A stretch of 64,000 nt of DNA from Naegleria gruberi (Eukaryota). The notes below the pieces were generated by a model. The model was given only the letters and a program-made list of their open reading frames with translations. It was not told the origin of the DNA and did not search any database. Positions 22,713 through 60,814 of this stretch are shown here, piece after piece (positions within the stretch are counted from its first letter, which is position 1; each line of letters begins with the position of its first letter). A program made the translations under genes and the position numbers. The stretch is taken from assembly GCA_000004985.1 (NCBI GenBank), contig GG738908.1; one strand, written 5' to 3'.

Positions 22713-22768
22713 CTTATTCGGTTATGCGCATATTAACATTTATCTGGATTTCTGTCAATACCCATCTC

Positions 22769-33327: not shown

Positions 33328-33770
33328 AACCGAAAAAGTCTTTGGTTGTTTCATGTGCATCATCGAATAGAGGATTTGTGGAGGGTGTCATTGTTAAATT
33401 GATGAAGAATGGTCTATTCCTTATCTATTCATCAGTTGCATTGTTGTTATTGGGTATTTTCAATTCCATTCATATTACCCAAACAAGAAATGGATTAATA
33501 TTCTCAATGATAGTGTTGGTAATTGCATTTATTGTAATGGGAGGTCAAGTATCACATGCAGTCACAGATCAAGTTTCAGAGATGAAAAGTGGTCTTTCTT
33601 GTGCCATTCCAACTATTACCATCACTGTTCCATCCACATTTGAAATAGATTTAAAACAGGAGGATCCTTCACTTTCACCTGAATTCAAAACAGAAGTGAA
33701 CTTTCTTCCAAAACAAATACAGCTTCATTTCAAAATGGAAGAAATGGATATCAAGGCGAAGAGGCTCTAA
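33321..33770 (+). CDS. ORF with two predicted TM helices; could be a separate small gene or an unresolved exon of a neighbouring gene
   Basis: A 149-aa ORF in a different frame from both neighbours. The TM segments are LFLIYSSVALLLLGIF and LIFSMIVLVIAFIVMGG. Confidence 0.25.
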   Translation: MVKPKKSLVVSCASSNRGFVEGVIVKLMKNGLFLIYSSVALLLLGIFNSIHITQTRNGLIFSMIVLVIAFIVMGGQVSHAVTDQVSEMKSGLSCAIPTITITVPSTFEIDLKQEDPSLSPEFKTEVNFLPKQIQLHFKMEEMDIKAKRL

Positions 33771-33781
33771 CCATCTCTACT

Positions 33782-36700
33782 ATGTATATTGACAACTGGA
33801 ATGAAATGAATGGACAAACATTCTATGAAGATGATGTTTTATTTGTTGGTTTCTCTGGAACCAGTTTCGAGGGAAGAACGTTAATGAGATTCAGCAACTT
33901 GCAAGGTAAATTACCAGTTGGTGCCTATATTAGCTCTGCATCATTGGATTTGACCTATGTAGCCTGGGTGAAAGGATGTAAGATTAGAGTCAATTATTTG
34001 AATAATACTTGGGTTGTGGCCAAGAAAACAGGTTGGAGATTTAGAAATTACGACCAGAAACTGGAATGGATTAGTGCAGGAGGAGATGTATTATCTAATT
34101 CTTATTCTGTTATGGAAAGTGGAATGAGTGATGATGGAAATCAAATCAAATCCATAGCTCTGGATCCTTATATTGTACAATCGTGGTTTGATGATAATTC
34201 AAAGAATAATGGCGTCATGATTAGCGAGGTTATAGGAACCACCATCAAACCAACAATCTTCGGAGGAAACTCTACTATTAGCTTCAGACCAAGATTAACA
34301 ATAACCTACCAATTACAACCAACCAAGCCTCCACAATACCCAATGGTTTTAGGCTTATTACCACTGAGAATATTTGTACAATCCAAGACTGTTAATTGCT
34401 CACAAATTGATTGTGGCGATGATGATACTGGATCTGGAGCTATCAATGCTCCTTTCAGATCCCTCGCGAAGGCCATCACATTTGCACAACCAAATGATAT
34501 TATTTTGTTGAGAGAGGGTGTTCATGCAGGTAATGTTCAAATTACAAGAAGAAATATTACCATTCAGTCCTACTCAAATGAGAAGGCAATCATTGCTAGC
34601 CCTGTGAATGACCCATCCATTGCAATAGCTCTCTATTTTAGAAGAGATTCTTCGTATTCTACTCTGAGAAATGTAGAACTTGTGGGAGGTTTTGATTATG
34701 CAATCAGATTAGAGTCCAGTATTGATTGGGGTGGAAATAACCTGAAATATGGAGCATCTAATATTGTTATTGAAAATTGTAAGATACACGGTAGTGGCTA
34801 TCACCTAATTAAGATTGACTCTCTTTGTGAGAATGTAAATATTAGAAATAATGAACTTTTTGATGCTGGTAAAAGAGTTAGAACTGGTGGAAGTGCTATT
34901 GTTTGCTATGATACTTTCATGACCAGAATCCAGGATAATTACATTCACCACACTATGGGCGCAGCAGTAATGATCAAGTCAGGTGCCAGAAATTCAATAA
35001 TTGAAAGAAATTATATTAACAAAATTTATGGAGCTGGTATTTTAGTTGGTTTTTATGAGACTGGAGAGTATTTTAGTGATCCAAGCCAGAATCCTCTCTA
35101 TTATCAAGCCGTTAATACCATTGTGAGAAACAATATTCTGAATGATATTTCTGGAGCTGGAATAGGACTTTATTCTGCAAAAAATACACTTATCCTATTC
35201 AACACTATTTGGAAAGCTGCAAAAGATAACCAGGCAGGTATTTTAATTAATGTTGTTCAAACATGGGTCAGTAACAGCTACTCGCCTATTGTACCTTGTA
35301 CCAATGTTACAATCATGAATAATATCATTGGTACAGCTACTGAAAGAATTATAGAGATTCGAACACTCACTAGCTATGTTGATGATTCAGTTGTTGGAGG
35401 ACTAGAGGGTAATATGAATGTATCTTTCAATATTTACTATTCCATGAAGAATGCTAATGGAGTGAATGGTCTCTTTTCTGATCAGAGAAATACTATTGGT
35501 TATGTTGGAGGATTCTCAGGATGGCAAACTAAATATCAGGATTATGGAAGTGTTGAAGGAAATCCTCTAATTGATCCAATAGCTTATTATCCCACCTCAA
35601 CTTCAAATGCTATCGGAAAAGGAATGTATATTCCCTCCACAATCTCAGATTACTTTGGAAGACCAATGAAATCCAAGTTGGTGACTATTGGTGCCTTACA
35701 GTTCCTCAATGATGGTTTCGAAGATGATCCAACCATGAAATATTCCATTACTAACATTATTTACAATCCTTCATTTAATGGAACTGTTCCACCAAAAGAT
35801 GTGCCAACTTGGGCACCTCCAACCACATACAGAACTATTTACGTATCTGCAACCAATGGTAACGACAATTCAGGAAATGGTACCATTGTCAATCCTTTTA
35901 AAACCATCAAAAAGGTTACTGATTCCTCTTTCGCAAAGGATAATGATATTGTAATTGTGAGAGGTGGTATTTATCAAGAAGGAGCCATTCGTATATCTTC
36001 AACCAATTATACTATCAAATCTTATGAGAATGAGATTGTCACGATTGTTAGTGATATTAACAATGGTAATATTTTATGGGGAATTAAAACCTTTTCCAAA
36101 TTTGTAACCATTGAAGGGTTGGAAATTGTTGGTTCATTCTACTATGGACTAATGATTGACTCTTCAGATGTTACCATAAGAAAGGTCAAGATTCATGATA
36201 CAGGTTCAGATTGTATTAAACTTTCTCCTTTCACCAAGAGAATTTCCATTCTCCAGAGCGAAATTTACCATTGTGGAAAGAGAAAAACCTATCAAGCAGG
36301 TAATCCAAATCAAGATTCAGCAAGTGGTGATGGCATTCGATGTGTTAATGTAGATGATGTATTCATTAGTAGAAATTACATTCACGATCTCACTGGAACA
36401 GCCATAAAAACTCAAGGAGGAGGTCTTAGGGCTATAATTGAGAGAAATCTCATTCTTAATATTGGAGGCTTAGGAATTACTTTAGGATTTTATGAAGAAA
36501 CTTCCTATATGGATCCAACACAGAATGTATACTACTATGAAGCTATTGAAGGATTAGTGAGGAATAATATTATAGTCAATGTGCAAGGATGTGGTGTAGG
36601 TCTCTATGCATCGAAAAATTCTAGAGTTTTACACAATACCATTGTGAGTTCAGCCCTTTCGATGCAAGTTCCTATTTTATTGGCTGCTAGTCCTCATACA

Positions 36701-39622
36701 ATCAATAGCGTAGAGATTGCAGGTCAGAGTAATCACAATCCAATGGTTAAGAATAATATTGTGCAAGTTTCAGAATCTGGTATAACTCAGACAATTTATG
36801 AAATCAGAGTTCAGGATGGAGATGCTTTGGATAACTCTAAACTAGATTCAAATTTCAATATTTATTACAGTAATTTCAATAATTACCATGGAAACTCTTT
36901 GGCGAATATCAATTTTATGGATAGAAGATTATCAAGCTACCTGTTTACTTCTGATTTTCATTTATGGAGAGCTCATATTCAATCTGATTACAACTCGTCT
37001 ATAACTGATCCAAAACTTGATTTCAATTTGAACATTGGAGAAGACAGTCCAGCTAGAAATACAGCACCTCTTCTTTCTGAAGTTTCTGAAGATTTCTATG
37101 GTAATTCAAGATCAGAAAACAATAATGACATTGGTGCCCTATTATTCACAACTGATTTGTCAAATTCTTCGTACTATCCTCCTGTAGTTGGAAGTTTATT
37201 ATTGAAGAGTGGTAAAAACGTATGCTCTGGAAATATGAGCTCGTTTGAAACTCCTAGAACCTACTATGTACATAATATTGAGGGTTCGGACACTGATTGT
37301 TTGGGAACTTTTGACATGCCCTTCAAAACTATTCAACAGGCACTCGCGGTAGCTTCTCCCTTCAGTAATATAACGATAAGGTACACTGGAGTGTCCTACA
37401 ATGAATCGTTATCTATCAAGACACCCTATTTGAGAATTTCAACATTTGAGAATGATCCATACGAGGCATTGATTCTTTCTTCAATTTATTCACCATCTAT
37501 TCTTCATACTTTGAGATTTGAATCAACTGCTTTCGGTTGTTCTCTTAGTAGATTACATCTTCAAGGAGGATATTTCTATACTCTTAAAGTAGATGCAGAT
37601 AATATTCAAGTAGATCGCTCAATTATTCACTATTGCGGTACTAAATGTGTGTTTGCCTTAAATGCTGATAATTTCACACTCACCAACAGCGAAGTGTATG
37701 ATTCTGGAATGAGAGATCCAAGCGAAGGTGAAGGAGTTCATGCGGTTGTTTCCCATAACTTTGAATGTAAGGACAACTATGTTCATGACATTACTGCCGA
37801 TGCTATCAAATTAGAAGGAGGGTCATCTCACGCAATAATTGCTGGTAATGCTATTTCTAATGCAGATAGAGGTATTCTAGTTGGTGGAAGAATTGATAAT
37901 TTGGATTTATTTGAAAAATCTAATACTCATCTTTATGAAACGTATAATTCTTCGGTTTATAATAATATTATTTCAAACACATTTGGAGTTGGAATTGCAA
38001 TGTATGGAGCTAAGCAATGTGAAATTTATTTCAATACCATTCTGAATACATGTATTACTAACACACAAGGAGCAGCCATTCATTTGGCTAGTACGAAACA
38101 TAGAAATTTAGTTATTACTCCAGTTGACTCCCTAGTTATTGTAAACAATATTGTTTATAATAGCGATCCAAGCAATGCAGGTGCCATGATTAGAATTGAT
38201 GAAGGTCTTGAGGGTTTTTCAGCATCCATCACTGGATCTGTCGTAATGAACAATAACCTGTATTATTCCAACAAATCATCCGTGTTTGTGGATGGAAGAA
38301 AGGCAACTAAATTTTCAGGAAACTTTAATATTTGGAAAACTCAAATCTCCAACTACTTTGGAAATGGAAACGAAGTCAACAGCTTGAACGTAGCTCCATT
38401 ATTAGATACTGATAATCTTTCTCCAAAGGGCTCTTCACCTGTGATATCTTCTGGACAAATTTCTTCAATAACTCAATCCATAACAAGCGATTTTTATGGC
38501 AATGTCAGAGATTCAATTAATTCTTCTGATATTGGTGCCATAGTGGGTGATGCTCTCATTGTTTCCAAATCAAAGCCAAGAACTATTCCACTGAATATTT
38601 CTAAGATTGCCCTCTCCAAAAGTTCAAACATTGTTAGATATCCTCCAAGCGGAAAGCAATCAACATGGTTTGTTCCTGGCTATACAACAGTTGACGATCC
38701 ATCCCTGTTTGATTTGTCCAATTGTTCTATCTATCCTTCTGATAATCCATGGAATCAAGATATTTCCAATCTACCTGTTCATCCTCGATCTGATGCCTTC
38801 ATTAATAATGTACCAAAGAAGTTTCTTCATGCAGACTTTGGAACGACATACGATGGTGCACTGAATGGTATTCCTTATGTAATTGTAACCAAAGATCAAG
38901 AAAAAGTTGGAATTACTCTGACTTCCTATGCTTCTGAATCTGATCCAGGTCCATATCCATTTCCAGAAGGAGCTCCTATTGAGGGAGGCCCTAATTCTAA
39001 TGGAGATCGACATATAATTGTATTGGAAAAGGATAGTTGTAAGCTGTACGAAACTTGGAGAACTTTCCCTATTTTGAAACAGTATCGTGAATCAGAGGGA
39101 GGAAACTTTTTCACAGCCGAATGTGGAGCTATTTTCGATTTGAAGTCAAACAATTTAAGACCACTTGGATATACTTCATCTGATGCGGCTGGTTTACCTG
39201 TTTATCCAGGACTTGTAAAGTATGACGAAATTGTTGTAAAGAAACAACTCAATCATGCTGTCAGATTCACAGTAATGACAAGTCAGAAAGCTTACATCTT
39301 ACCAGCTACTCACTTTGCCTCCTCAAATACGAATCCAAATATCATGCCAATGGGATTGAGATTGAGAATGAAGGCAACCTATGATTGTTCTCTCTTATCA
39401 GAGGAAATTCAAGTAATTTGCGCAGGATTGAAAAAGTTTGGCATGATTTTGGCAGACAATGGTGGAGATTTTTATGTTTCAGGATCTCCACATCCATTGT
39501 GGGATGATAATCACCTCAATGATATGAAGAAGATTCCATCTCTTGCCTTTGAAGTTGTCTACACTGGAAAGACATGTATTGATCCTAGTTGTAACACATG
39601 GAGAGATGAAATTATCAATTAA
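33782..39622 (+). CDS. Giant (1946 aa) protein with three tandem right-handed parallel beta-helix (pectin-lyase-fold) modules and a conserved ~330-aa C-terminal domain
   Basis: One uninterrupted ORF. Three modules each start with a NPFKTIKK / APFRSLAKA / MPFKTIQQAL ... (R)GG(I)Y motif. Each is followed by about 20 NxI/NNxI beta-helix rungs (IHHT/IHD motifs, FYE(E)T..Y.DP.QN..YY.A insertions). The C-terminal domain is GDRHIIVLEKDSCKLYETWRTFP...ICAGLKKFGMILADNGGDFYVSGSPHPLWDD. Confidence 0.8.
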   Translation: MYIDNWNEMNGQTFYEDDVLFVGFSGTSFEGRTLMRFSNLQGKLPVGAYISSASLDLTYVAWVKGCKIRVNYLNNTWVVAKKTGWRFRNYDQKLEWISAGGDVLSNSYSVMESGMSDDGNQIKSIALDPYIVQSWFDDNSKNNGVMISEVIGTTIKPTIFGGNSTISFRPRLTITYQLQPTKPPQYPMVLGLLPLRIFVQSKTVNCSQIDCGDDDTGSGAINAPFRSLAKAITFAQPNDIILLREGVHAGNVQITRRNITIQSYSNEKAIIASPVNDPSIAIALYFRRDSSYSTLRNVELVGGFDYAIRLESSIDWGGNNLKYGASNIVIENCKIHGSGYHLIKIDSLCENVNIRNNELFDAGKRVRTGGSAIVCYDTFMTRIQDNYIHHTMGAAVMIKSGARNSIIERNYINKIYGAGILVGFYETGEYFSDPSQNPLYYQAVNTIVRNNILNDISGAGIGLYSAKNTLILFNTIWKAAKDNQAGILINVVQTWVSNSYSPIVPCTNVTIMNNIIGTATERIIEIRTLTSYVDDSVVGGLEGNMNVSFNIYYSMKNANGVNGLFSDQRNTIGYVGGFSGWQTKYQDYGSVEGNPLIDPIAYYPTSTSNAIGKGMYIPSTISDYFGRPMKSKLVTIGALQFLNDGFEDDPTMKYSITNIIYNPSFNGTVPPKDVPTWAPPTTYRTIYVSATNGNDNSGNGTIVNPFKTIKKVTDSSFAKDNDIVIVRGGIYQEGAIRISSTNYTIKSYENEIVTIVSDINNGNILWGIKTFSKFVTIEGLEIVGSFYYGLMIDSSDVTIRKVKIHDTGSDCIKLSPFTKRISILQSEIYHCGKRKTYQAGNPNQDSASGDGIRCVNVDDVFISRNYIHDLTGTAIKTQGGGLRAIIERNLILNIGGLGITLGFYEETSYMDPTQNVYYYEAIEGLVRNNIIVNVQGCGVGLYASKNSRVLHNTIVSSALSMQVPILLAASPHTINSVEIAGQSNHNPMVKNNIVQVSESGITQTIYEIRVQDGDALDNSKLDSNFNIYYSNFNNYHGNSLANINFMDRRLSSYLFTSDFHLWRAHIQSDYNSSITDPKLDFNLNIGEDSPARNTAPLLSEVSEDFYGNSRSENNNDIGALLFTTDLSNSSYYPPVVGSLLLKSGKNVCSGNMSSFETPRTYYVHNIEGSDTDCLGTFDMPFKTIQQALAVASPFSNITIRYTGVSYNESLSIKTPYLRISTFENDPYEALILSSIYSPSILHTLRFESTAFGCSLSRLHLQGGYFYTLKVDADNIQVDRSIIHYCGTKCVFALNADNFTLTNSEVYDSGMRDPSEGEGVHAVVSHNFECKDNYVHDITADAIKLEGGSSHAIIAGNAISNADRGILVGGRIDNLDLFEKSNTHLYETYNSSVYNNIISNTFGVGIAMYGAKQCEIYFNTILNTCITNTQGAAIHLASTKHRNLVITPVDSLVIVNNIVYNSDPSNAGAMIRIDEGLEGFSASITGSVVMNNNLYYSNKSSVFVDGRKATKFSGNFNIWKTQISNYFGNGNEVNSLNVAPLLDTDNLSPKGSSPVISSGQISSITQSITSDFYGNVRDSINSSDIGAIVGDALIVSKSKPRTIPLNISKIALSKSSNIVRYPPSGKQSTWFVPGYTTVDDPSLFDLSNCSIYPSDNPWNQDISNLPVHPRSDAFINNVPKKFLHADFGTTYDGALNGIPYVIVTKDQEKVGITLTSYASESDPGPYPFPEGAPIEGGPNSNGDRHIIVLEKDSCKLYETWRTFPILKQYRESEGGNFFTAECGAIFDLKSNNLRPLGYTSSDAAGLPVYPGLVKYDEIVVKKQLNHAVRFTVMTSQKAYILPATHFASSNTNPNIMPMGLRLRMKATYDCSLLSEEIQVICAGLKKFGMILADNGGDFYVSGSPHPLWDDNHLNDMKKIPSLAFEVVYTGKTCIDPSCNTWRDEIIN

Positions 39623-42465: not shown

Positions 42466-45400
42466 TTATTGTCTCTTATATTTAATAATAAATTCAGGAT
42501 AACATTGACATTTATCATAGACAATGAATTCTCTATATGAATTAGTTGAAGTATTTGATTGACCAATAACACTATCATAAACTCTATTGTTACTTCCTGA
42601 AATTTCAGGTGGTCTTCTCTGATTATTCATCACTTGTTTTGTGAAATGAATTTGTCTTCCCATTACAACTCTACATAATAATAGAGTATATTCATTGGAA
42701 TGATCAGGTGTACAATATTGATCACTCTTTGAACAATATTCTGCAAAATAAATACCTGCTCCAAATAATCCATTTAAATTTGCAACTCTTTCATCAAATC
42801 CATGTTCTGCAATTGTATTCACAAATTCAGGTTTTGTTCCATGCCATAAATATTTTTCATTCATATTAGAATTTAATCCAATTGTTTTCATCCATTCAAA
42901 TGATTTTGATGTTTTTGAAATATTTTCAGTTTGAACTTGAAGTGAATTAATTGAATCTTGATATGAAATTAAATGATTCATTCTTGATTTGAATGAAGTG
43001 AAAAGTGTTGAATTTTCAATTCTTGAAACACTTGAAACAATTAATTTAGAATAATTAATTCTTGATAATTGATCTCTTCCAGATCCAAGTGTTGCAGAAT
43101 TACACGATACATTCATAATTTCTTGCATTGTATCTTTTAAATATTGTGTAACATCAACAGTGTAATATCTTTTCGAATAAGTTTGGAATGTGTTTCTTTT
43201 CCAATAACTTGGAAGTGAAATTGTTAATTGTTTGGATTTTGATTCTTTAATTTCCTTTTCCATCTTCTCAATTTCAATTTCTTTTTGTTTCAAATTTTGT
43301 AATTTCTTTGAAATTTCTTCACTTTTCTTTGACTTTGAATTTGAAAATTGTTTCTTTTCCTTTTCTAGATTTAAAATTTCAATTTTCAAATTTTCATGAT
43401 TTTTTTTCATTTTCAATTCAAATTCATTCAATTGATTCTGATAATCTTTCAATTCCTTTGATTGATTTTCCATTAATTGAACATGTTTCTGAATTTTAAC
43501 TTCATCTAATAATGTTCCTTTCAAAAAGAATTCATTTGCAAGTGCATCAGATGCAAATGGTCTCAAATTTACATCTGAATTCAAACATTCATCACATAAA
43601 TTATTCAATGATTTGAATTGTTTCAATTCTTGTTCTTTCATACAATTTTTAATTGTTTTACCAAATGCAAACATGTCAGATTTAAATGTTGCTGATGTTT
43701 TTCCATTCACTAATTCAGGTGCTAAATAATCCAATGTACCAGCAATTCCACTTGTTCTTGTGAATAAATTCATTGTTCTACTTGTTATATCTAAACTAAT
43801 ATCAAAATCACCTAAAATAATTGGATAATATTCTGTGATCATNNNNNNNNNNNNNNNNNNNNNNNNNNNNNNNNNNNNNNNNNNNNNNNNNNNNNNNNNN
43901 NNNNNNNNNNNNNNNNNNNNNNNNNNNNNNNNNNNNNNNNNNNNNNNNNNNNNNNNNNNNNNNNNNNNNNNNNNNNNNNNNNNNNNNNNNNNNNNNNNNN
44001 NNNNNNNNNNNNNNNNNNNNNNNNNNNNNNNNNNNNNNNNNNNNNNNNNNNNNNNNNNNNNNNNNNNNNNNNNNNNNNNNNNNNNNNNNNNNNNNNNNNN
44101 NNNNNNNNNNNNNNNNNNNNNNNNNNNNNNNNNNNNNNNNNNNNNNNNNNNNNNNNNNNNNNNNNNNNNNNNNNNNNNNNNNNNNNNNNNNNNNNNNNNN
44201 NNNNNNNNNNNNNNNNNNNNNNNNNNNNNNNNNNNNNNNNNNNNNNNNNNNNNNNNNNNNNNNNNNNNNNNNNNNNNNNNNNNNNNNNNNNNNNNNNNNN
44301 NNNNNNNNNNNNNNNNNNNNNNNNNNNNNNNNNNNNNNNNNNNNNNNNNNNNNNNTGTTATCACTTTCAGTGTAAATTCCTTCAATTTCAATAATATTTG
44401 AATGTTTTAACTTGTTTGTAATTNTCAATTCCTTTTCTAAACCTTCAATTGATTTCTTATCTTTTAAATTATATTGTTTAATTATATGTTTTTTATCATT
44501 TAAATCAATTCCAATAAAAACATTATGATTTCCATTCCAATTTTGAATTGGTTTAATTTCTTTAAACATTTCAGGTGTCATTTCATTAATATTTAAATTA
44601 GATAATAAATCACTTGCCATGTTTGATTTAATATCAAATCCAATTGTCGTTAATTGAAGAAATTTCATTTTAATTTCATTTAATTTTTGAATATTTTCCT
44701 TCAAATTAGATTTTAATTCAATTAAATTAAATTCTTTAATTTGAATTTCATCTTTAATATCATTCATTTCATCTTCATTATTAACATGTTTCAATTCATC
44801 TTTTAATCCTTCAATATCTAGATTTAACATATTTAAATTTCTTGTAATTCTTGTTTTTTGTCTTTGAATGGTTTTAAATTGTTCAGATAAATTTGAATAA
44901 TTATTCATAATATTTATAATATTTTGTAACATTTCATATTTTTCAATTATATATGGAATTGTTTCTTGAATTAATAATTTACAATTTAATTCTTGTTTTT
45001 GATAATAATTATATAATTCTAAAATATTCATTTGATCATTGTCTGAAATTAATACTTTACAATTTGATAATATATTATTTAAATATAATTCTTCTTGTTC
45101 TGATAATTCCATTGCTTTTTGTAAATTATTTGAAAATTGTGTCAAATCAATTTCATTACAATAATTGATAGAGTTTACAATATTTGATAATTGTTTTGTA
45201 ACTTGTTGTAATATTGTTTTAGTTTCATTTCCAAATTTATTATGAGTTGGAACTATATTAATACTGTTTATATTCTTAATAGATTGTTCACTCATTTCAA
45301 TACTGTCAAATAATTCTTGTTTAATAAATTGAGAATTAAATTCATTAAATAATTCTAATTTTTCACTTAATACTTCTAAATAAGATTGTAATTTAAATAA

Positions 45401-49838: not shown

Positions 49839-50858
49839 TTAGAAAATTCTGAATTGTAAATTGGTGCTATTAGTCTTTTTGTTGTTGTTATTATTATTAT
49901 TGTTATTGTTATTGTTGTTTGGCAATGGTACGAATTTCATAACAATAGCAAAGATGCAACCACCCAAGATGGCCAAAGCAACTAACAAACACAAAACAGC
50001 ACAACACTTATCAGTTTGAATTCTCCTCATGAAACTGGTAATTTCCTTTTGAGCTCTTTTCACATTGCTTCCGAGAGCATCCATTTCTTCATCAATTCTC
50101 CTCAATTGGTCTCTTTGTTGTCTCAGTAAATCAGCAGAATCAGTTGCCAAAGCAATAGTTTCCTCTGATTTCTTATTCAAACGATCGATAATGTCCAAAC
50201 ATTCCTTCTGAGTTGAAAATACTTCAGAAAATAATTCCTTTTCAATTTCATCGTGCCTTTGACGTTGTTCCTGTGTCAGATTGGCATTTCCCTTGTACAT
50301 ATTTGTCACATCAGCATCACTGTTTCTCTTAACTTCCACAACATCATCTTCTTCAATGGCATTGGATGAATTCTTTCCTTCATTCAATTTGTTTGCAAAT
50401 GTAAAGAAACCTTCCTTTTTACGAACACCACCACTATTTGTTGCTGATGATGATGAATTTGATGTTAAATTGGAATTTGTTGATTCTAAAGCAGAGTTAT
50501 TTGATGATTTACCATCATTCAACCCCTTTGCTTTAGTTTCAATAAATGTTTTTGATTGTTTGTAACTTGCTCTCAACTTGGCAATAATTTCCTTGTGTTT
50601 CTTCTTGGTATCGGATACTTGATTTTCAACGGATGGATCATTCTTTGTCAAGTTATTAATCTTGTTATATAATTTCCTACATTTTTCCAATAATTCTTCA
50701 ATAGTTTCGGATAGTGTGGAAATTTGTGAGGAAATAAAATTTGGATCCGATTGATTGGTAATGTTTAGACGACGAAGAGTGGTGATGTTTTCTTCAATCT
50801 TTGACTCGACACTTTCCAACTCGTGTGTGTAGGTTGAAAGTTTTTCGAGACTGCTCAT
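49839..50858 (-). CDS. Syntaxin-like Q-SNARE (t-SNARE coiled-coil homology domain plus C-terminal TM), with a poly-Asn tail after the TM
   Basis: A 339-aa ORF. The SNARE motif is LRQQRDQLRRIDEEMDALGSNVKRAQKEITSFMRRI. The TM is CCAVLCLLVALAILGGCIFAIVM. A 14xN tract follows, encoded by an (AAT/AAC)n repeat at 49878..49925. Confidence 0.7.
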   Translation of the reverse strand: MSSLEKLSTYTHELESVESKIEENITTLRRLNITNQSDPNFISSQISTLSETIEELLEKCRKLYNKINNLTKNDPSVENQVSDTKKKHKEIIAKLRASYKQSKTFIETKAKGLNDGKSSNNSALESTNSNLTSNSSSSATNSGGVRKKEGFFTFANKLNEGKNSSNAIEEDDVVEVKRNSDADVTNMYKGNANLTQEQRQRHDEIEKELFSEVFSTQKECLDIIDRLNKKSEETIALATDSADLLRQQRDQLRRIDEEMDALGSNVKRAQKEITSFMRRIQTDKCCAVLCLLVALAILGGCIFAIVMKFVPLPNNNNNNNNNNNNNKKTNSTNLQFRIF

Positions 50859-52472: not shown

Positions 52473-55400
52473 TTAAGCAGTATTTTGAGTTCTTTGATTT
52501 GTTTTCTTGTGGAATAAAACTGTTCCGTAGTGTTGATTACCCATTACAATATTGCCATGATCCATTGGTATTTCATCTTTTCCAGTAAGTGTGGGCACAA
52601 TACTAACCATGCTTGGTATTGTTCTGTGTTTATCACCCCAACCTTTCTTCAGCTTGGTACCTATGTAAAATAAGACAAATATTGCCACCAATATAATCAC
52701 CAAAACAACCACAACAGAAATAACTGCTCCTATGATAATGGAGGCAAATTGAGCGTTTGCATCCACAACAGAACAATCAGATCCCAAAAATCCTGATAAA
52801 CATTGACATACACCATCCAAACAAATTCCATTCAAACTGCAATGATTTGGACAGGTAACATTTGCACAGGAAGCTGGGTTGGATTCACATGCATCAGCAG
52901 CAACTGCATTAGCACTAGCCATTGCAAAGGAAGTGTCACCAGTTGAAATTACATCGAACAAACAAGTCTGATAGAAAGTTCCAGTTAAACCAAGATTTGT
53001 GCAAATCTTTTTAGCAAGTTCGTTCAAGGTTTGATTTTCGGATGTGGCAGAAATAGCTGGTTCAAAATCGACAATGTTAATTGAGTTGTACGTTTCATCT
53101 GCTGTATAAATGAAATAGGATTCGCTTTGTGGCACTCTCCAGCTCTCTCCAAATCGTTTATGAATATCTGTGGCAGATGGATCATTCAATACAAGACCAT
53201 TCCTCAAAGTAAATTCATTGGATGCATTACCATCTAGTGTTCCATATAAACCTCCCTTTTCAGTTCCTGTAAAGTTAGTGTCCTTTGCAGGTGAGAAGGA
53301 GACACTAAGCCACTTGATTCCATCATTTTTCAATCTGAGCTGGCCTGAAAAGATTCCAGAAAACTTGATTAAAATTACTTTGAATGGAATGGAAGTGTCG
53401 TTCACCTTGTAAGAATTCACTGGATCCTTCTCTTCAACAATAGTAGCACCTCCATTCAATACATAGACTGGTTGTGAAGGTGGTTTGTAAGCGAGAGCAG
53501 TTTGTTGAATTTGTGGAATTTCATTAGTATCAGGATCTCTTTGATATTTGATTTGATCATAAAAGTTTTGTAAATCTTTTGGTATTTCAAGTGTTGCATT
53601 ATTTTCCACTGCTTGAACATTAACAACAGTTTCCTTGAGGTCTACAACTTGTCCATTGACATATACTACCACATCATTCGTTCCATCTGAAGAAACTTCA
53701 ACTGTATCAGTTCCACTTTGGAATGAAATAGCTTTCATGCAAGAGGTCTTGGAGTCCTTAGTACATTTAAGCAATCTTCCTTGCATGGTAAATTCAGTTA
53801 GATTTGTACAAGTAAAACTCTCCCAATGAATTGAAAGAGTACAACAGACCATCCACAGTTCTCAAGTGGATATCCCCAAAGGCAAGTACTCTGTTGAAAA
53901 GTTCAAACTCTTCAATCTTGTTGCACTTTGCTCCTGCAAAACCTGGGAAGCAACTGCAGATATTTGGGCCAACACAGGTTCCGTGCTCTGAACACCAGTC
54001 TTTATGAGCACAATGGAATTTAGAACAGTCATCGCCCATCCAGCCCCATCTACAAACACAATCATTCAATCCAACACATTTTCCTCTCTTTGCTCCTCCA
54101 CAATTTGAATAATTTGCACACAGTGAGTTGTCAAAAGTAATACAATCCAACTCTGGTGGAACATATGTAGCATCTTGGACGAAGATTGTTGAATACGAGT
54201 CAACTTTCAAGTACACCATGTTTGATTTGCAATCATACGATGTTTCTCCATCAGTTCTATTGGATGGGGATAGAATATATTCCTTATTTGGGCTAACAAT
54301 GTTAATAGAGATAGGGCCCCATGCACTGAACTTGAATCCCAAACTTATACCATATTTTCCTAACCAAGATATTTCAATCTTCTCTGGGGTACCAACAACT
54401 CCTAGCCATTCAACAGTATAACTGTTTGTGATATTATCCAAATATAGAGCTCTGTACTGCCATTCTCCTCCAGTTGTTAATTCTCCCAACAAATTTTCAG
54501 TTTGAAGATTTGATGTAGAGTTAATTCTTGTTTGATCGACAGAGTTTGTAATAGCTGGTGAGACAAACTCCAACTTGGACCAATTTACAGTCTCGTCACA
54601 CATGTATGCATTCCATGCTGAAACGTAAAAGCACTTATCAAAATCTACCATAATATTGTTTGCTGGAATGACTCTAGAATTGACTCTATTGAATCCGGCA
54701 GGAACAGTAATGTTATAGGATAAGCAACCATCTAGATCGATAATAATAGAGTGTTTGTAATTATCGTGTAGACCATTACTCTTACCAACCAATAGATATA
54801 TGACGTTAGAGTTGTGGAACTTTAAATTCTTGACGAGGTAATCGCCTTGAACCATTCTTGCCATCTTATCATTCTTAATACTAATAGCATTTGCTTTTCT
54901 GTTGCAATTATCAACAAAATTGAAAAACTCAATTCCGTCCAAAGTCATTGGTTTTCCGTCTCTGTGAAATTCTACACCAACAATTGGTTGGGTTCTGTAA
55001 TTTGCATAGGATCTGTGATAGGTAGAATTTGGATTTTTGTAATTACCACAAGAATAACAACCATAAGCACAACTACCAGTATTTCCCTTATTTCCAGACT
55101 CTCCAATGAAAATGCAGTCTTTGGCTGTGAACTTGTCTTGGTTGATCACATTGAAAGTATAACCAATAGGATTATCTGCATAGATACTATCCTTCATGGC
55201 TATTTCTCCTTGCACATAGGCAAATTGTCCTTGTACCTTATTTCTATAAGAGACGAGTTTTGTAAATTCGGCTACGGCCCAAGGATTTTCGGCACTACCA
55301 CACCTAATCTTTTGGAAGATTTCTAATCTAGGATCGGTACAAACAAAGAAATCGTGCCATAAATTGAGACCATGCTGTCTATTACTATGAACTGTGTTGT

Positions 55401-57868
55401 TGTAAAATTTTCCCCAATACCATCTGCTGGGTTGGATGTAAGGAGACATACTTGGACCTAAACTGTAAGGTTCTAATTGATACCAAATTCCATGACCTTC
55501 ACTACCAGCAGCTCTATTGTTGATAAGAGTATTGTGAGGATTAGTCATCCAGAATGTTGCTGGGGAAGCATCATGATTGGTAGGACTTAGAATAGCTCTC
55601 GAGTCTGGGATGGCTTTTGTTACAAGTCCCAAACAATTCTCAATAATATTTCCCTCTTCAACTGCATCTTCCAAAAAGAAAGTATGTCCAAAAACATTGT
55701 AAGCAACAATACCCTCAGCGTGTAAGTTATTCACGCCGTGGAATGTAATTCCTCTCTGATAGGTGTCGTGGATTGATAACTTTTTAACATAGGAAGTTGA
55801 AGCATTGTTAAACAAGTGGAAGTGAACTGGATATCTGAAAAATGTGTAAATAAATTGAATTCAATTTTTGAATAACTTACCTTCCCAAAGTTCCTGCCTG
55901 ACCACATCTCCTAAATTCTGCATTATTCAATCTGATGTACTTGGCTGTTCTCATGTAAATAGTGTGACATCCGAACAAGCTGTTATCACTACTTTCATCT
56001 CCTTGCACCTTAATGTTGTGTGTCAATAAGGCGACTTCAGCTCTCTGGTCAAACTCTACAACCGTACCATCTGCTTTTGTGTAGTATTCAGTTTCAGCGT
56101 AGTGACCATAAACAAGTGGTGAGTGCAATTCAAAAGCTGTTCCACTAATTCTTCTGGTGATAAATCTTCTCTCGGCCTGATACAAGTCATAATCTGTCGA
56201 TGCAATCACAATCTCATCACCCACATCCCACAATGTCTCTTGAGCGAGGTAAATGATGTTATCTCCAACTTTTGATGATTGTTTCAATAAAGTCCAAGTT
56301 ACCTCATGTCTCTTTCCATGCAAACTCAAGACGCCTCCACTCATCACAGCAATATTCTTGTTACCAACACCCTTATCACTCAATGGTGTCTTCTCTCCAT
56401 ACAGAGTGATTGTTGCTTTGTGTTGATATGGTGTTGACTCGTTACCGATTTGGAGAGAACCAGTAACAACCATACTGTTCATTTGTAATTGAAGATCAAG
56501 AGTTTCATTTCCGTAATCATTATTATCAAATATGAGACATCCATAAACCATGACTGTATCCAATTTAGGTGGGCTGACATCTAGAATAATTGTCTTGTCA
56601 GATGGAATTGTCACAAATGAAGCAGATGCAAGAGTTTTACAGGTTGTGTTCTTATAACTTGTTTTACATATTGGATTGTTTTCAACATAGTAGGTTGTTG
56701 AACAATTTTCAGACATTGAATCATTGGAACAATAAACGAAAGAGAAGGAACATGAAGGCATTGTAAAACTTGTAGTATTAAGCCCATTTAGCCCCATCTC
56801 ACATAATGAACAATTTGTTCCACTATCTGTAAAATTGCAAATGTCAGTTAAATTCATAGCCACTCTTTCTGTACAATTTACCTCAGTGTCATTAAATGAA
56901 TCACAAATGGTAAGGGAATAGCTACTTTCGCATTCGACAATTTGCTGAGTTGAAGGACATTTTACAGTTTCATTTGATACGGTGCTATAATTCGAATAGG
57001 TAGAGTTCACTAATTCTGGGAAATATTCTGACCATTTCACAGTCTCTGAAGGACAATTATCACCAATTCCAGTTCCATAAGGATCTGTTGTGGTTTTGGT
57101 AAAAATTATTGCTTGTTTTCCAACTCCATAAGCATTATATCCTTTAAATTTGTTATAGGGAAGAACTCTGAAACTGTATGTTACATTCTGATCCAAATTA
57201 AATCTAGTGTATGTTTCAGCTTGGTGAGTCTTGTACATTACAGTTACATATCCCAAAGAATTGAGAGTTGACATTTGTATTTGATAGTAACAAATAACAT
57301 TTGTCGTATCATTTGATAATTTCCACCTCAGCTCAATACTAAAATAAGTTGGTATTGCCACAAAATTTTCAACAATTGAAATGTTGGCAGCTGTTGAAAA
57401 TCTATTAGTAATATTTCCATCAGATGGATCTGACAAATCCGAGAGTAAATACCTCCTTGGAGCTCCCTGTCCAATCGACCAATAACAACAAGGGTCTCCT
57501 AGTTCATCACCATTTGTTAGACCATCTCCATCTGAGTCCATCAAGCAAAATGTTTCATCCCAAACATACTTATTCTTTGCAAAGTCCTTTGCAAACTTGG
57601 TCATTGTCCCATTCTTGAAGAAGATATTAGTAAAGAGTTGTGAGTCAGGATAGATTGCACCATTTGGTAGTTTTGTGATATCAAAATCTGCATATAAACT
57701 CGATAAGGGTTTTGAATACGTCGAAGGCAATTGGCTCACCAATAGAAGAATATATACAATGATAGAAGAACAATACAAAAACCATGATATCTTATCATAT
57801 CGGCTTGTTCTTATTGAGGAGTAAGATGATGAATAGTCCGAGTAGGACCTCTGTTCTCTCCTCATCAT
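52473..57868 (-). CDS. Large type-I membrane glycoprotein. It has a signal/anchor, a TSP3-like Ca-binding DxDxDG motif, an FN3-like segment, a G8-type domain, a PbH1/beta-helix region (CEMIP/TMEM2/fibrocystin-like), EGF-like Cys modules, a TM and a short tail. 3 exons (1759 aa)
   Basis: Exons are 57868..55881, 55834..53850 and 53779..52473. Intron 1 runs GTAAGTTATTC...TTTTTCAG (46 nt). It splits ...RCGQAGTLG|R from YPVHFHLFNNASTSY. Intron 2 (70 nt) has a GTCTGT donor and a CATGCAAG acceptor. Total CDS is 5280 nt, or 1760 codons. The TM is IIIGAVISVVVVLVIILVAIFVLFYI. The EGF-like part is CPNHCSLNGICLDGVCQCLSGFLGSDC. The family call rests on the 'GRYPVHFH' junction and the GG / G8-like glycine pattern, which I recalled rather than searched. 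Confidence 0.65.
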
Positions 57869-58209: not shown

Positions 58210-60814
58210 TTAAGCAATATTGATGGAGGATATTTCGATTTTATCGTTCAGATGAGAAATTCCTTTAAGGGATTTTTGAAGAGTGGTATGATAATTGTGG
58301 AGAGCCTGAGCCAAGTTTTGACTCTTCTGATTGGTGAGAGTATCAAGAATAGTAAGCAAACGATTCGTAATAATTTGATCCTCTGGATACTTATTCAAAT
58401 GATCTTGAAGAATATTGACCGATTCTTGGATTCGGTCCAGAACTTGAGAATCAGACATCGAAGAAACAGTCTTTGGATCAAAGATTGCAAAGGCAGCTTC
58501 AAAATCTTTGAACTTTTTGTTTGCTTTTTGCTGTTCCAGTTCATACATCCATTCTGATAGGTATCAATTTGTAATGAATTGAATTAGTGAAATTATTAAT
58601 TACTAACAAACTTACCATCTTTTTCATAACTATTCTCCTTAATGACTTCATAGACAACTGTTGGAGTTTTGCCTTCGCTATTCTCCAAAACAAATCTTTC
58701 GACAGGTCTCACAACAAATGCAGAAGTGGCCTCAGTGCAAACACTCTCACTATCTGCAAGGATCTTACAACCAAGTGAACAACCTAGAATGGAGAGGTTC
58801 TTTGAATTGGTAACCATTGGACCGACGATTGAGTAATATCTCAAATTGTTTGTTCCCAAATTACCCACATTGGCCATTCCAGAGCTAATACCGATAGAAT
58901 AACTTGATAATTTACCAAGGTTGTCCAAAACTTTGGAAACCTTGAGAGCACTTTCCATAGCTGCCAAGTTTTGTTTCTTCTTACAATCAGCAAATGAGAG
59001 TTGGAATTCTTCAACTGATAGGATTTGCAAATCAGCTTGCAAACTCTTTGCCAAAACACTCAATCCTGATGCTACCTTTGCAAATAAATTCGTTACTTCC
59101 AAAGGATTTAACTTTCCAAATTCATTCAAATGAATGTAGACGATACTGACTGGCTTGATGGAAAGACCCAATTTGAATAATCCACCACCAGATTTCAAGT
59201 CATGTTTGGAAGATTTCAGAGAGCTGTGGGCTGAGCTTCTATTAGAGAGTGAATGTCTGCTCTCTTTCATGCTTTCATTATTCTTATCCGTTTGTGATTG
59301 CTCCTGTTCAGCCTTCTCCATATTTCTCAACTGATTGAAAATTGTCTCTGGTAAGAAACTCTTAAATTCATTCAACCAATTCACCATTTCGTGTAAGTCT
59401 TCATAAATTCTATTGACTTCCCTAAATTTACTTGAAATAAAGTTGACATTCTCCAAATCAAACTTCTTAATGAGGAAGAATTGACTTTCCAAATATCTCA
59501 ATGGTTGAGTTATTAAATATCCGATACCAATACTGAGAATCAAACCAACAATCACCACTGCTACTGCCACACCAACAGATATACCAGTGTTAATATTGGT
59601 AGTCTTGGCAATATCACTCTTGTAAACAACAAGGAAAACATTCCATCTGATATTTTCTAAAGAGAAGGATAATCTGGAAATTAGATAATCGACTCCCTTA
59701 CTAGTGAATTCAAAATCTGAGGGAGAAGATGTCAGATTTGAGTACTTGGCAGCTATTCCTGACATGAGAGCTCCAGAATCTTTGGCAATTAGATCAAATA
59801 TCTTGACACGAGACTTGCTGTCAGCTGCTGTGGTGTTAATCGAGCCTCCAATGACGAAGTCATTCGTTTCTGAAACGAGTACATAACCGTCTCCAATTAG
59901 AGTTAATGTTTTAAGGAACTTTTCAATATTCAACAATGACAAGTTGACCTTTGAAATACCAATTGTCTTTTTTGTTCCGTTCAATGCCAGCAAGTATGGA
60001 TCATACAATTTTACAGAATAATAAATACAAGTTGTTGAATTGACAACAGTGTAAGGCAATCCATAAACCCTATCCGTTTGATACAAATCAAAAAAGTTGA
60101 AACTTGTAACCCAATATGCCAATGAAGTAATTACAAAAGGAGTTGTCTGATTGACCACCAAATTAATAAAAGATCCATCAGTTTCATTTGCATACCATTG
60201 TTCAACTCCAATATATCCCTTCGGTTTGACATAATAAGTGAACGATTGTTTTGGTTTTCCATCGGGAAAGATTGTCAAATTGAAATAGGTATTCACCTCA
60301 TCTGGAAAGAACAACCCAACAGCTGATGGATAGAATATCTGATTCTTGGAAAATAAGTAACTCAAATCAGGTTTTCTTCCAATGAGTCCTCTATTGAAAT
60401 CTTCAGCCAAAACTCGAGCCAAGTGAGCTGAAGGAGAAATTTCTCCCTTCAAGAAGGCCATTACATTCTCTCCAACTTTATGGATTAAATCAGTAGAAAG
60501 TGAGTCCAATGCTTGAGTGGAACCAATATACGAAGCTAACCAAATGAAGAAGGAACAGGTAATGAGGAGAATGATCATAATGATAATGATGGTCAATCGC
60601 ATGGAGAACCAACCTTCCATTTTGGTTGGAATTTTTGGTTTGACCTTTTGTCCAGAGACGAGTTCTTCATTTTCATGATTGAGGCCAGCAGAAGAACCCT
60701 ATTGTTGATTTCAGTTTCGAATAGTGCAATTTGTAGTGCATTTAGTCAGTTGCTTTGAAATGTATTGTTACTTACAGAAAACTCTGAAGGTGATGCAGGT
60801 GCAATTTTAGACAT
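58210..60814 (-). CDS. Two-TM receptor with ~310-aa extracellular sensor-like domain and intracellular cyclase-homology-like domain that looks catalytically degenerate; 3 exons (821 aa)
   Basis: Exons are 60814..60776 (MSKIAPASPSEFS), 60698..58616 and 58553..58210. The terminal-exon splice ...SYEKD|gtaagtttg...cctatcag|EWMYELEQQ... keeps the frame. Total CDS is 2466 nt. The topology is a cytosolic N-terminus, TM1 (LTIIIIMIILLITCSFFIWLASYI), an ectodomain, TM2 (ISVGVAVAVVIVGLILSIGIGYLI), then a class-III cyclase fold signature (SIGISSGMANVGNLGTNNLRYYSIVGPMVTNSKNLSILG). The metal-binding Asp residues are absent (SIVYIHLNEFGKL in place of the F.D..GFT motif). Confidence 0.6.

What the first reader, a model, noticed from the sequence alone, without database searches (positions are those of the whole stretch)
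52473..57868. Three-exon G8/PbH1/EGF membrane protein (CEMIP/TMEM2/fibrocystin-like architecture)
The ORF finder splits this gene into three overlapping ORFs. Joining them through two phase-consistent introns gives a 1759-aa type-I membrane protein. From the N-terminus it has a signal anchor, a TSP3-like Ca-binding DSDGDGLTNGDELGDPCCYW motif, an FN3-like segment, a G8-like domain ending ...GTLGRYPVHFH and a long beta-helix region. It ends with three EGF-like cysteine modules, one TM and a 50-aa tail. In animals this architecture marks hyaluronan/glycan-processing or mechanosensory ciliary proteins. The second intron uses a weak GTCTGT donor and needs confirmation.
Basis: partly seen in the sequence, partly recalled or inferred. 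Interest (0 to 1): 0.5.

Follow-up and report, generated by a model that had tools for sequence, protein, structure and literature searches.

The report
Naegleria TMEM2-like surface glycoprotein gene
This is an already catalogued Naegleria gruberi gene for a large cell-surface protein built around a TMEM2/CEMIP/fibrocystin-type sugar-chain-handling beta-helix; the first proposed intron is real, but the "second intron" is a patch over one extra base that breaks the reading frame.

Summary
The three ORFs exist at the stated coordinates and belong to one minus-strand gene, Naegleria gruberi NAEGRDRAFT_73885 ("FM171"). Intron 1 (55880-55835, GTAAGT..CAG, 46 nt) is confirmed. It restores the conserved GRYPVHFH motif, and one Pfam CEMIP_beta-hel match runs across it.

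Intron 2 (53849-53780) is also in the public model but is not supported. Five homologues read straight through it, and 14 of the 23 residues it would remove are invariant in the four closest. Deleting one base (53796) gives a gapless match. The VWD score then rises from 21.8 to 36.5 bits (cutoff 22.9).

The corrected product is 1782 aa: signal/anchor, Temptin_C, weak FN3, variable Cys/N-glycan stalk, G8, CEMIP-type beta-helix plus following sandwich, 3 EGF, VWD, EGF, TM, conserved tail.

The core is homologous to the TMEM2 ectodomain (phmmer 1.3e-58; Foldseek TM 0.78). It lacks both lectin-like GG domains, including the one needed for hyaluronan degradation, and has no TIG repeats. It is therefore a module relative of CEMIP/TMEM2/fibrocystin, not a member of either family.

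The likely role, by inference, is surface glycan binding or cleavage. This is ordinary gene annotation plus a gene-model correction.

The parts
55881..57868 (-). Exon 1 (residues 1-662 plus two bases of codon 663); start ATG at 57868
   Evidence: ORF. Residues 59-88, upstream of the public model's start at 57604, are conserved in orthologues.
57722..57793 (-). N-terminal hydrophobic segment (residues 26-49): signal peptide or signal anchor after a 25-residue charged N-region
   Evidence: Kyte-Doolittle scan. The N. fowleri orthologue has a short classical signal-like N-terminus. Cleavage was not tested.
57458..57616 (-). Temptin_C domain (residues 85-137) containing DSDGDGLTNGDELGDPCCYW
   Evidence: Pfam PF24784, E 1.9e-18, 67.2 bits. 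The motif is invariant in 5 homologues.
57149..57340 (-). FN3-like segment (residues 177-240), sub-threshold
   Evidence: Pfam fn3, E 1.2e-4, 22.6 bits against a cutoff of 25.
56624..57061 (-). Variable Cys- and NxS/T-rich stalk (residues about 270-415)
   Evidence: Poorly aligned and of variable length among homologues, and absent in Willaertia. It holds many of the 34 sequons.
56285..56623 (-). G8 domain (residues 416-528)
   Evidence: Pfam PF10162, E 7.9e-29. Aligns to TMEM2 chain residues 74-164.
55835..55880 (-). Intron 1, 46 nt, GTAAGT..TTTCAG, GC 0.20, phase 2
   Evidence: Sequence. The Pfam CEMIP_beta-hel profile runs 2-32 before it and 33-212 after it. The spliced GTLGRYPVHFH matches all orthologues. 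It is the same type as other introns in the window.
54127..56656 (-). TMEM2-like core (residues 405-1232): G8, right-handed beta-helix and the following beta-sandwich, interrupted by intron 1. Conserved motifs are RYPVHFH (663-669), GHxFFLEDxxE (712-722), HSN (812-814) and ADN (882-884).
   Evidence: phmmer against PDB: 8c6i_A, E 1.3e-58. AF2 model pLDDT 87.8. Foldseek 8c6i_A, E 4.8e-44, TMq 0.78. Invariant columns in the 23-sequence alignment.
52473..55834 (-). Exon 2, running continuously to the stop codon at 52475-52473 once the extra base at 53796 is disregarded
53911..54144 (-). Three EGF-like modules (residues about 1227-1304)
   Evidence: Pfam EGF_TEN, EGF_PEAR1L, EGF_Teneurin and EGF_2. 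WIF-1 and HHIP EGF hits.
52887..53886 (-). VWD domain with C8/RGM_C-like end (residues about 1313-1645). It starts FGDIH, not GDPH.
   Evidence: Pfam VWD, 36.5 bits, profile positions 3-94, only when read through. RGM_C and C8-3_MUC4 hits. Profile hits to MUC2, MUC5AC, VWF and RGMB.
53780..53849 (-). It is judged to be coding sequence for residues 1325-1347.
   Evidence: 14 of 23 residues are invariant across homologues. Orthologue DNA is contiguous here. P0034 also reads through. No canonical GT..AG alternative exists.
53796..53796 (-). Extra base (T on the coding strand, or equivalently the preceding C) that shifts the frame by +1 and creates an in-frame TGA
   Evidence: Codon-by-codon alignment with N. 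fowleri: AAC[T]GAA TTT aligned to CAA GAG TTT.
52770..52871 (-). Fourth EGF-like module (residues 1651-1684)
   Evidence: Pfam EGF_Teneurin and EGF_2.
52656..52745 (-). Transmembrane helix (residues about 1693-1722)
   Evidence: Hydropathy peak 3.66.
52476..52655 (-). Cytoplasmic tail (about 60 aa) with the conserved motifs MVSIVPT and YGxxLFxKK
   Evidence: Alignment A1.

Best explanation
The locus is one Naegleria gruberi gene, NAEGRDRAFT_73885 / FM171, on the minus strand. It has one real intron (55880-55835) and encodes a surface glycoprotein of about 1782 aa.

Domain order: signal or anchor, Temptin_C, FN3-like segment, variable Cys/N-glycan stalk, G8, CEMIP/TMEM2-type right-handed beta-helix with a following beta-sandwich, 3 EGF, VWD (C8/RGM_C-like end), EGF, TM, and a conserved tail of about 60 aa.

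The apparent second intron is not an intron. The assembled sequence carries one extra base at 53796 inside the VWD domain. I judge the extra base most likely to be an error in this gap-containing draft scaffold, so the real gene is intact.

Mechanism (inferred, not shown): the ectodomain presents a polysaccharide-binding or polysaccharide-cleaving beta-helix at the cell surface. The helix carries His/Glu/Asp motifs conserved from bacteria to humans (RYPVHFH, GHxFFLEDxxE, HSN). The EGF and VWD modules would mediate self-association or matrix and partner binding. The conserved tail would couple to trafficking or signalling. Because the lectin-like GG-1 domain is missing, the substrate is unlikely to be hyaluronan.
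For: Identity of the gene:
- P0001 (NAEGRDRAFT_73885, 'FM171') is 99% identical and maps exactly onto the window.

Intron 1:
- Canonical signals.
- One Pfam CEMIP_beta-hel match is split 2-32 / 33-212 across it.
- Splicing restores the GRYPVHFH motif, which is conserved in the homologues.

No second intron:
- Homologues P0002-P0005 and P0034 all read ..FGDxH.R(T/S)xDxxxYxFNSxGEFYxxKS..xLQxRL.. without a gap.
- N. fowleri genomic DNA is contiguous there.
- Removing base 53796 gives a gapless codon alignment.
- 14 of the 23 residues that the intron would remove are invariant.
- The Pfam VWD score is 36.5 bits read through and 21.8 bits spliced, against a cutoff of 22.9.
- The four clear introns in the window are GTAAGT..YAG, 44-64 nt, GC 0.18-0.24. 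The candidate is GTCTGT..AAG with GC 0.34. No other frame-restoring GT..AG pair is canonical.
- The window is a draft scaffold with four large N gaps.

Core homology:
- TMEM2 ectodomain 8c6i_A, E 1.3e-58.
- AF2 model pLDDT 87.8.
- Foldseek E 4.8e-44, TMq 0.78. The next hits are capsule depolymerases and polysaccharide lyases.

Glycan link:
- Relatives fuse the same module to the carbohydrate-binding domains NPCBM and PA14.
- The module family is large, with 5741 representatives at E<=1e-3.
Against: - No reads or transcripts could be examined. Sequencing error, real mutation and real splicing are separated only by comparative evidence.
- No independent N. gruberi assembly was found.
- The biochemical function is wholly inferred. 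Even for TMEM2 no active site can be assigned, and activity of the isolated ectodomain is weak or disputed (PMC10206443, PMC12423501).
- The AF2 model of the VWD region was uninformative (pLDDT 36.7).
- Pfam CEMIP_X (PF24605) was not detected at E<=0.1, so the post-helix sandwich rests on the structural match.
- Signal-peptide cleavage was not tested.
Confidence: 0.6

Rival explanations
1. The extra base is real in strain NEG-M, or in the assembled haplotype. The gene is then a very recent pseudogene, or it makes a truncated, unanchored 1342-aa product ending ..GEFYLYKSN*. That product would have the beta-helix and three EGFs but no complete VWD, TM or tail.
For: - The frameshift is in the deposited sequence and creates an immediate TGA.
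- A paralogue, P0005, exists and could buffer loss.
- From my own knowledge, not checked here: NEG-M is a long-cultured axenic laboratory strain.
Against: - This is the only disruption in about 5.3 kb.
- The 440 codons downstream remain open and keep the conserved motifs, including the tail.
- The scaffold is draft quality.
- None of this excludes a very recent mutation.
Confidence: 0.25
2. The model of the reader and of JGI is right. A 70-nt intron (53849-53780, GTCTGT..AAG) is spliced out, giving a 1759-aa protein with a shortened VWD domain. It could be an intron recently created from exon sequence that rescues the frameshift.
For: - GT..AG borders exist and restore the frame.
- The public model P0001 uses the same junction.
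Against: - The 'intron' encodes 23 residues, of which 14 are invariant in homologues.
- The spliced VWD falls below the Pfam threshold.
- Donor, acceptor, length class and GC content differ from the four clear introns in the window.
- No orthologue has an intron there.
Confidence: 0.08
3. There is a programmed +1 ribosomal frameshift at AAC-UGA-A, of the antizyme or RF2 type. Ribosomes pausing at the in-frame UGA would skip the U and continue in the VWD frame.
For: The shift site coincides exactly with an in-frame stop codon, and the +1 frame continues the conserved protein without a gap.
Against: - The shift is absent from all five homologues.
- There is no significant downstream RNA structure (z = -1.31).
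- There is no slippery P-site re-pairing.
- A T inserted before GA creates TGA trivially.
Confidence: 0.02
4. The third ORF (52473-53852) is a separate gene.
For: It has its own ATG at 53852.
Against: - The VWD domain starts in ORF2 and continues in ORF3 (Pfam profile 3-94).
- All homologues are single polypeptides across this point.
- There is no intergenic space, because the two ORFs overlap.
Confidence: 0.01

Closest known systems
TMEM2 (CEMIP2) and CEMIP/HYBID/KIAA1199, vertebrate hyaluronan-depolymerisation proteins; solved structure 8C6I
   Same: - The G8 domain is continuous with a right-handed parallel beta-helix and followed by a beta-sandwich.
- Sequence homology runs over about 640 residues (E 1.3e-58).
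- The fold matches at TMq 0.78.
- The motifs GRYPVHFH, GHxFFLEDxxE, TFW..P.N.LINN.AAGS and FYNN.VHSN are shared.
- Both are cell-surface or extracellular proteins.
   Different: - Lectin-like GG-1 is absent. Nine residues replace about 174 (query 532-540 against chain 165-338). GG-1 carries the residues whose mutation abolishes hyaluronan degradation (PMC10206443, PMC12423501).
- There is no GG-2. No PF15711 hit was found.
- The topology is a C-terminal TM, whereas TMEM2 is type II and CEMIP is secreted.
- It carries extra Temptin_C, FN3, EGF and VWD modules.
Fibrocystin (PKHD1) / PKHD1L1-like giant proteins
   Same: - The best non-heterolobosean matches to the core are 3000-4600-aa proteins with IPT/TIG repeats and two G8 plus beta-helix units (E about 1e-100 to 1e-112, 36-39% identity).
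- Both have a C-terminal single TM and a short tail.
   Different: - There are no IPT/TIG repeats.
- There is only one G8/beta-helix unit.
- It is less than half the size.
- It has VWD and Temptin_C modules, which the two TIG-containing giant relatives scanned here (P0035, P0036) lack.
Bacterial and metagenomic G8 plus CEMIP_beta-hel proteins of about 800 aa, for example Capsulimonas corticalis CCAX7_22670
   Same: They share the same G8, beta-helix and sandwich core without GG domains, at 29-33% identity over about 73% of the query. Relatives are fused to the glycan-binding NPCBM or PA14 domains.
   Different: - They have no eukaryotic adhesion modules (Temptin_C, EGF, VWD).
- They have no C-terminal TM and tail.
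- They are uncharacterised.
VWD-containing membrane mucin and RGM type C-terminal modules (MUC4, MUC2 D domains, RGMB)
   Same: A VWD domain is followed by a C8/RGM_C-like cysteine segment, then EGF and TM.
   Different: - The start motif is GDIH or GDVH in all homologues, not GDPH, so the Asp-Pro autocleavage site is absent.
- There is an insertion of about 100 aa within the VWD.
- The similarity is marginal (E about 1e-3 against solved structures).

Membership tests
CEMIP/TMEM2 family | G8 domain (PF10162) | tested here: met
   E 7.9e-29, residues 416-528.
CEMIP/TMEM2 family | CEMIP-type parallel beta-helix (PF24606) continuous with G8 | tested here: met
   E 1.4e-50 across intron 1. 8c6i_A at E 1.3e-58. 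Foldseek TMq 0.78.
CEMIP/TMEM2 family | Lectin-like GG-1 domain inserted in the helix. It is required for hyaluronan degradation (R187 in HYBID; R265, D273 and D286 in TMEM2). | tested here: not met
   The alignment jumps from TMEM2 chain residue 164 to 339 while the query advances only from 531 to 541. There is no PF15711 hit at E<=0.1. The role of GG-1 is taken from PMC10206443 and PMC12423501.
CEMIP/TMEM2 family | C-terminal GG-2 lectin-like domain | tested here: not met
   No PF15711 hit. The region after the sandwich is EGF, VWD, EGF, TM. The target-normalised TM-score is only 0.52.
CEMIP/TMEM2 family | Domain X beta-sandwich after the helix (PF24605) | tested here: inconclusive
   There is no Pfam CEMIP_X hit. 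However, the phmmer alignment extends to TMEM2 chain residue 913, and the model is all-beta and confident over model residues 540-815.
CEMIP/TMEM2 family | Hyaluronan binding or depolymerisation | not testable with these tools
   This needs biochemistry.
Fibrocystin / PKHD1 family | Arrays of IPT/TIG domains (PF01833) | tested here: not met
   No TIG hit in any of the three ORFs. The giant relatives P0035 and P0036 do have them.
Fibrocystin / PKHD1 family | Two G8 plus beta-helix units | tested here: not met
   One G8 and one beta-helix match only.
Fibrocystin / PKHD1 family | Ciliary localisation | not testable with these tools
   The only hint is the gene name FM171. From memory, it denotes the flagellar-motility phylogenetic-profile set of the 2010 genome paper. 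That paper is not held.
VWD-domain proteins (PF00094) | Complete VWD domain above the Pfam threshold | tested here: met
   36.5 bits against a cutoff of 22.9, only for the read-through sequence. The spliced model scores 21.8 bits.
VWD-domain proteins (PF00094) | GDPH autocatalytic cleavage motif (RGM, MUC2 and MUC4 type) | tested here: not met
   The motif is GDIH or GDVH in all homologues.
Spliceosomal intron (candidate intron 2) | GT..AG borders that restore the frame | tested here: met
Spliceosomal intron (candidate intron 2) | Local intron signature: GTAAGT donor, YAG acceptor, AT-rich, not coding | tested here: not met
   It is GTCTGT..AAG with GC 0.34, against 0.18-0.24 for the clear introns. 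It encodes 14 invariant residues.
Programmed +1 frameshift (antizyme/RF2 type) | Shift at an in-frame stop codon | tested here: met
   AAC UGA A.
Programmed +1 frameshift (antizyme/RF2 type) | Shift site conserved in orthologues, and a stimulatory downstream structure | tested here: not met
   Orthologues are in frame. The downstream fold has z = -1.31.
Temptin-like proteins | Temptin_C domain (PF24784) | tested here: met
   E 1.9e-18, 67.2 bits against a cutoff of 27.

The most novel reading that the evidence does not exclude
FM171 could be a flagellum-associated, lectin-less relative of the fibrocystin/TMEM2 beta-helix module. Its conserved His/Glu/Asp face would be the real, still unidentified, active or ligand site of the whole G8/beta-helix superfamily. 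Naegleria builds flagella de novo within about an hour. It could therefore make the unresolved biochemical function of fibrocystin, CEMIP and TMEM2 directly testable in a simple cell. A separate low-probability reading is that the frameshift is bypassed by recoding or by a newly born intron.
Probability: 0.12. Interest if true: 0.55.

Novelty: new member of a known kind. Interest (0 to 1): 0.2.

Why it matters
- **Annotation.** The public model for NAEGRDRAFT_73885 appears wrong at both ends of the problem. It starts 88 residues too late, which loses the signal or anchor sequence. It also splices out 23 conserved VWD residues to hide a 1-nt frameshift. This shows how automated models, and sequence-only readers, can invent weak-donor introns to absorb indels.
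- **Biology.** A TMEM2/CEMIP/fibrocystin-type G8 beta-helix core exists in a heterolobosean without the lectin-like domains that animals need for hyaluronan degradation. It is attached instead to EGF and VWD adhesion modules. The G8 beta-helix is therefore an old, widely shuffled glycan-handling cassette (5741 representatives, including bacterial ones) and not a marker of hyaluronan or ciliary function.
- **Scale.** It is useful context but not a surprise to a specialist.

Tried and rejected
- **AF2 model of the VWD region.** I modelled the read-through sequence with a 5-sequence alignment to see whether the 23 residues form core strands. Mean pLDDT was 36.7, so it was uninformative.
- **Independent N. 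gruberi assemblies or transcripts.** I looked up the exact ORF products and P0001/P0005. None is on record. Error and real mutation could therefore not be separated.
- **Literature.** Searches for FM171, 73885 and Naegleria with G8 found nothing relevant. The 2010 genome paper is not held. The meaning of 'FM' therefore rests on my memory.
- **Third homologue search.** A search with the C-terminal part returned no proteins. Searches also failed to re-list P0001-P0005, so the tool may skip proteins it has already returned. I treat as 'no new relatives', not as 'no relatives'.
- **Alternative introns.** Of the 156 frame-restoring GT..AG pairs around the junction, the 25 shortest (34-202 nt) all have non-consensus donors, and every one shorter than 148 nt ends in an AAG acceptor. 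An independent screen of the junction found no GTAAGT-like donor paired with a YAG acceptor among 47 candidates.
- **Frameshift-stimulating RNA structure.** The fold downstream of the UGA has z = -1.31, which is not significant.
- **Other odd ORF junctions in the window.** Pfam scans of these, intended to estimate a local frameshift rate, were not informative.
- **TSP3 calcium-binding repeat.** Rejected in favour of Temptin_C (E 0.063 against 1.9e-18).

Full report
**What the window is.** The window has about 35% GC and five runs of N (four of 50 to about 3,000 bases, plus one single N), so it is a draft scaffold. A search with the joined protein returned NAEGRDRAFT_73885 of Naegleria gruberi at 99% identity. 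UniProt names it 'Uncharacterized protein FM171'; it is 1671 aa (P0001). The same search returned orthologues and paralogues in N. fowleri (P0002, 64%), Willaertia magna (P0004), an unnamed Logan assembly (P0003) and N. gruberi itself (P0005). P0001 maps exactly onto the window as three blocks: 57604-55880, 55836-53848 and 53780-52476.

Intron 1 (55880-55835, 46 nt, GTAAGT..TTTCAG, phase 2) is real by three independent criteria:
- Its signals are canonical and match the other clear introns in the window. Those are GTAAGT..YAG, 44-64 nt, GC 0.18-0.24.
- A single Pfam CEMIP_beta-hel match is split by it, with profile positions 2-32 in ORF1 and 33-212 in ORF2.
- Splicing recreates GTLGRYPVHFH, which is conserved in the homologues.

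The N. fowleri orthologue has no intron here. Its only intron (69 nt, GTAAGT..TAG) lies in the EGF region.

**The second 'intron'.** The candidate (53849-53780, GTCTGT..GCAAG, 70 nt, GC 0.34) is not supported.
- ORF2 continues past the proposed donor as ..FGDIHLRTVDGLLYSFNSLGEFYLYKSN*. ORF3's frame then reads ..EFTMQGRLLKC...
- All homologues, including the more distant P0034, read ..FGDIH.RT.D..NYTFNS.GEFYLYKS.EF.LQGRL.. as one uninterrupted stretch.
- A codon-by-codon alignment with N. fowleri genomic DNA shows one extra base in the window at 53796 (AAC-T-GAA). Removing it gives a gapless match.
- Of the 23 residues the intron would delete, 14 are invariant across five sequences.
- The Pfam VWD score is 36.5 bits (profile 3-94) for the read-through sequence and 21.8 bits for the spliced one. 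The cutoff is 22.9.
- A profile of the read-through region hits the start of the MUC2 and MUC5AC VWD domains across this segment.
- None of the short frame-restoring GT..AG pairs at the junction has a canonical donor and acceptor.

The sequence therefore contains a +1 frameshift inside a conserved VWD domain, and the intron is a modelling device. Whether the extra base is an assembly error or a real mutation cannot be settled here. No independent assembly or transcript could be retrieved. I favour error at about 0.6, real mutation at about 0.25 and a real intron at about 0.08. A programmed +1 shift at AAC-UGA is formally possible because the shift coincides with the stop codon. However, it is absent from orthologues and has no downstream structure (z = -1.31), so I put it at about 0.02.

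**Corrected product.** The corrected protein is 1782 aa.

| Residues | Feature | Evidence |
|---|---|---|
| 26-49 | Hydrophobic signal or anchor; the public model starts at M89 and lacks it, yet residues 59-88 are conserved | |
| 85-137 | Temptin_C, containing the DSDGDG..CCYW motif; TSP3 scores only E 0.063 | E 1.9e-18, |
| 177-240 | FN3-like, below threshold | |
| about 270-415 | Variable Cys/NxT-rich stalk, absent in Willaertia | |
| 416-528 | G8 | E 7.9e-29, |
| 632-819 | CEMIP_beta-hel | E 1.4e-50, |
| to about 1225 | All-beta region | |
| about 1227-1304 | Three EGF modules | |
| about 1313-1645 | VWD with C8/RGM_C-like end; starts GDIH, not GDPH | |
| 1651-1684 | Fourth EGF | |
| about 1693-1722 | TM | |
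| last about 60 aa | Tail with conserved MVSIVPT and YGxxLFxKK | |

There are 34 N-glycosylation sequons, all in the ectodomain.

**Relation to known proteins.**
- *TMEM2.* By sequence, residues 441-1081 match the human TMEM2 ectodomain (8c6i_A, E 1.3e-58). An AlphaFold model of residues 405-1232 (pLDDT 87.8, pTM 0.87) has that structure as its top Foldseek hit (E 4.8e-44, TM 0.78 on the query and 0.52 on the target). Phage capsule depolymerases and polysaccharide lyases follow.
- *Missing lectin domain.* The alignment skips TMEM2 chain residues 165-338 while the query advances only nine residues. That interval is the small sandwich plus lectin-like GG-1 domain. GG-1 carries the residues whose mutation abolishes hyaluronan degradation (PMC10206443; PMC12423501).
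- *Other missing features.* No GG (PF15711) or TIG (PF01833) hit exists anywhere in the protein.
- *Size of the family.* An exhaustive search with the core finds 5741 representatives at E<=1e-3 and 1529 at E<=1e-30.
- *Closest outsiders.* The closest relatives outside Heterolobosea are giant TIG-rich proteins with two G8/beta-helix units, which are fibrocystin-like. Next come proteins of 800-1300 aa that fuse the module to NPCBM, PA14, Big, cadherin-like, PKD or FG-GAP domains. Bacterial members exist, for example in Capsulimonas.
- *Same full architecture.* Only heterolobosean-type proteins (P0002-P0005, P0034) share the EGF and VWD-like C-terminus.

**How it probably works.** The following is shown here: a heavily glycosylated single-pass surface protein whose core is a TMEM2-type beta-helix with motifs conserved from bacteria to humans. 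Those motifs are RYPVHFH, GHxFFLEDxxE, HSN and ADN.

The following is inferred. The helix binds or cleaves an extracellular polysaccharide. The support is its fold relatives and the carbohydrate-binding partners of the module in other proteins. The EGF and VWD modules would mediate self-association or matrix contacts. The conserved tail would link to sorting or signalling. Hyaluronan is an unlikely substrate because GG-1 is absent. Even for TMEM2 no active site can be assigned (PMC10206443), so this mechanism is a best guess.

The gene name FM171 suggests, from my memory of the 2010 genome paper, membership of the flagellar-motility phylogenetic-profile set. I could not verify this.

**Verdict.** This is a real gene and a real G8/beta-helix protein. 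It is one exon fewer than claimed and has an overlooked VWD domain and a frameshift. At the module level it is a relative of CEMIP/TMEM2 and fibrocystin, but it is not a member of either family, because defining features were tested and not met. The gene is already in public databases as a hypothetical protein. The main practical output is a correction of its gene model. Interest is low to moderate.

Noticed in passing
window 33782-39619 (+), with upstream stop-free segments 32839-33324 and 33276-33767: A second giant ORF (1946 aa) has a right-handed beta-helix (PF13229, E 2e-35) and a DUF1565 hit, about 13 kb from the target. The overlapping upstream ORF segments have no canonical intron between them. 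This may be another weak intron or another frameshift.
   Followed up: partly
window 28924-32004 (+) and 31947-32474 (+): A receptor-kinase-like gene has a Chlam_PMP repeat ectodomain and a C-terminal protein kinase domain. The kinase appears to be interrupted by a 44-nt GTAAGT..TAG intron at 31903-31946.
   Followed up: partly
window 57604-57868 (-): The public model P0001 starts at M89 (57604) and lacks the hydrophobic N-terminus. Residues 59-88 are conserved in four homologues. The deposited protein is therefore N-terminally truncated.
   Followed up: yes
L001 6811-6879 (N. fowleri VFQX01000052.1) compared with window 55835-55880: The N. fowleri orthologue's only intron lies in the EGF region, between GTCIG and PNICRC. 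N. gruberi's only clear intron lies in the beta-helix. Neither position is shared, so intron positions have turned over between the two Naegleria species.
   Followed up: yes
window 15544-16658, 18359-18408, 22769-25800, 43843-44355: These are runs of N (scaffold gaps). The ORF finder lists spurious long ORFs across them, for example 22724-25816 and 15463-16704, and GC drops to 0.04-0.13 in those bins.
   Followed up: yes
window 58596-60620 (-): The upstream neighbour is a 674-aa ORF with an N-terminal hydrophobic segment, a second hydrophobic stretch in the middle and a Ser-rich region. It has no Pfam match at E<=1e-3.
   Followed up: partly
window 52476-52655 (-), cytoplasmic tail: Two short tail motifs, MVSIVPT and YG(T/E/M)(V/L)LFxKK, are conserved across Naegleria and the Logan homologue and partly in Willaertia. 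The surrounding tail is variable. They may be sorting or partner-binding signals.
   Followed up: no
window 2255-6838 (+), 7582-10287 (+), 10304-11374 (-), 49842-50858 (-): Other neighbours are a DOCK-C2 protein, an F-box protein, an RGS-domain protein and a SNARE-domain protein (SNARE is below threshold at 23.9 bits). None has an evident functional link to the target gene.
   Followed up: partly
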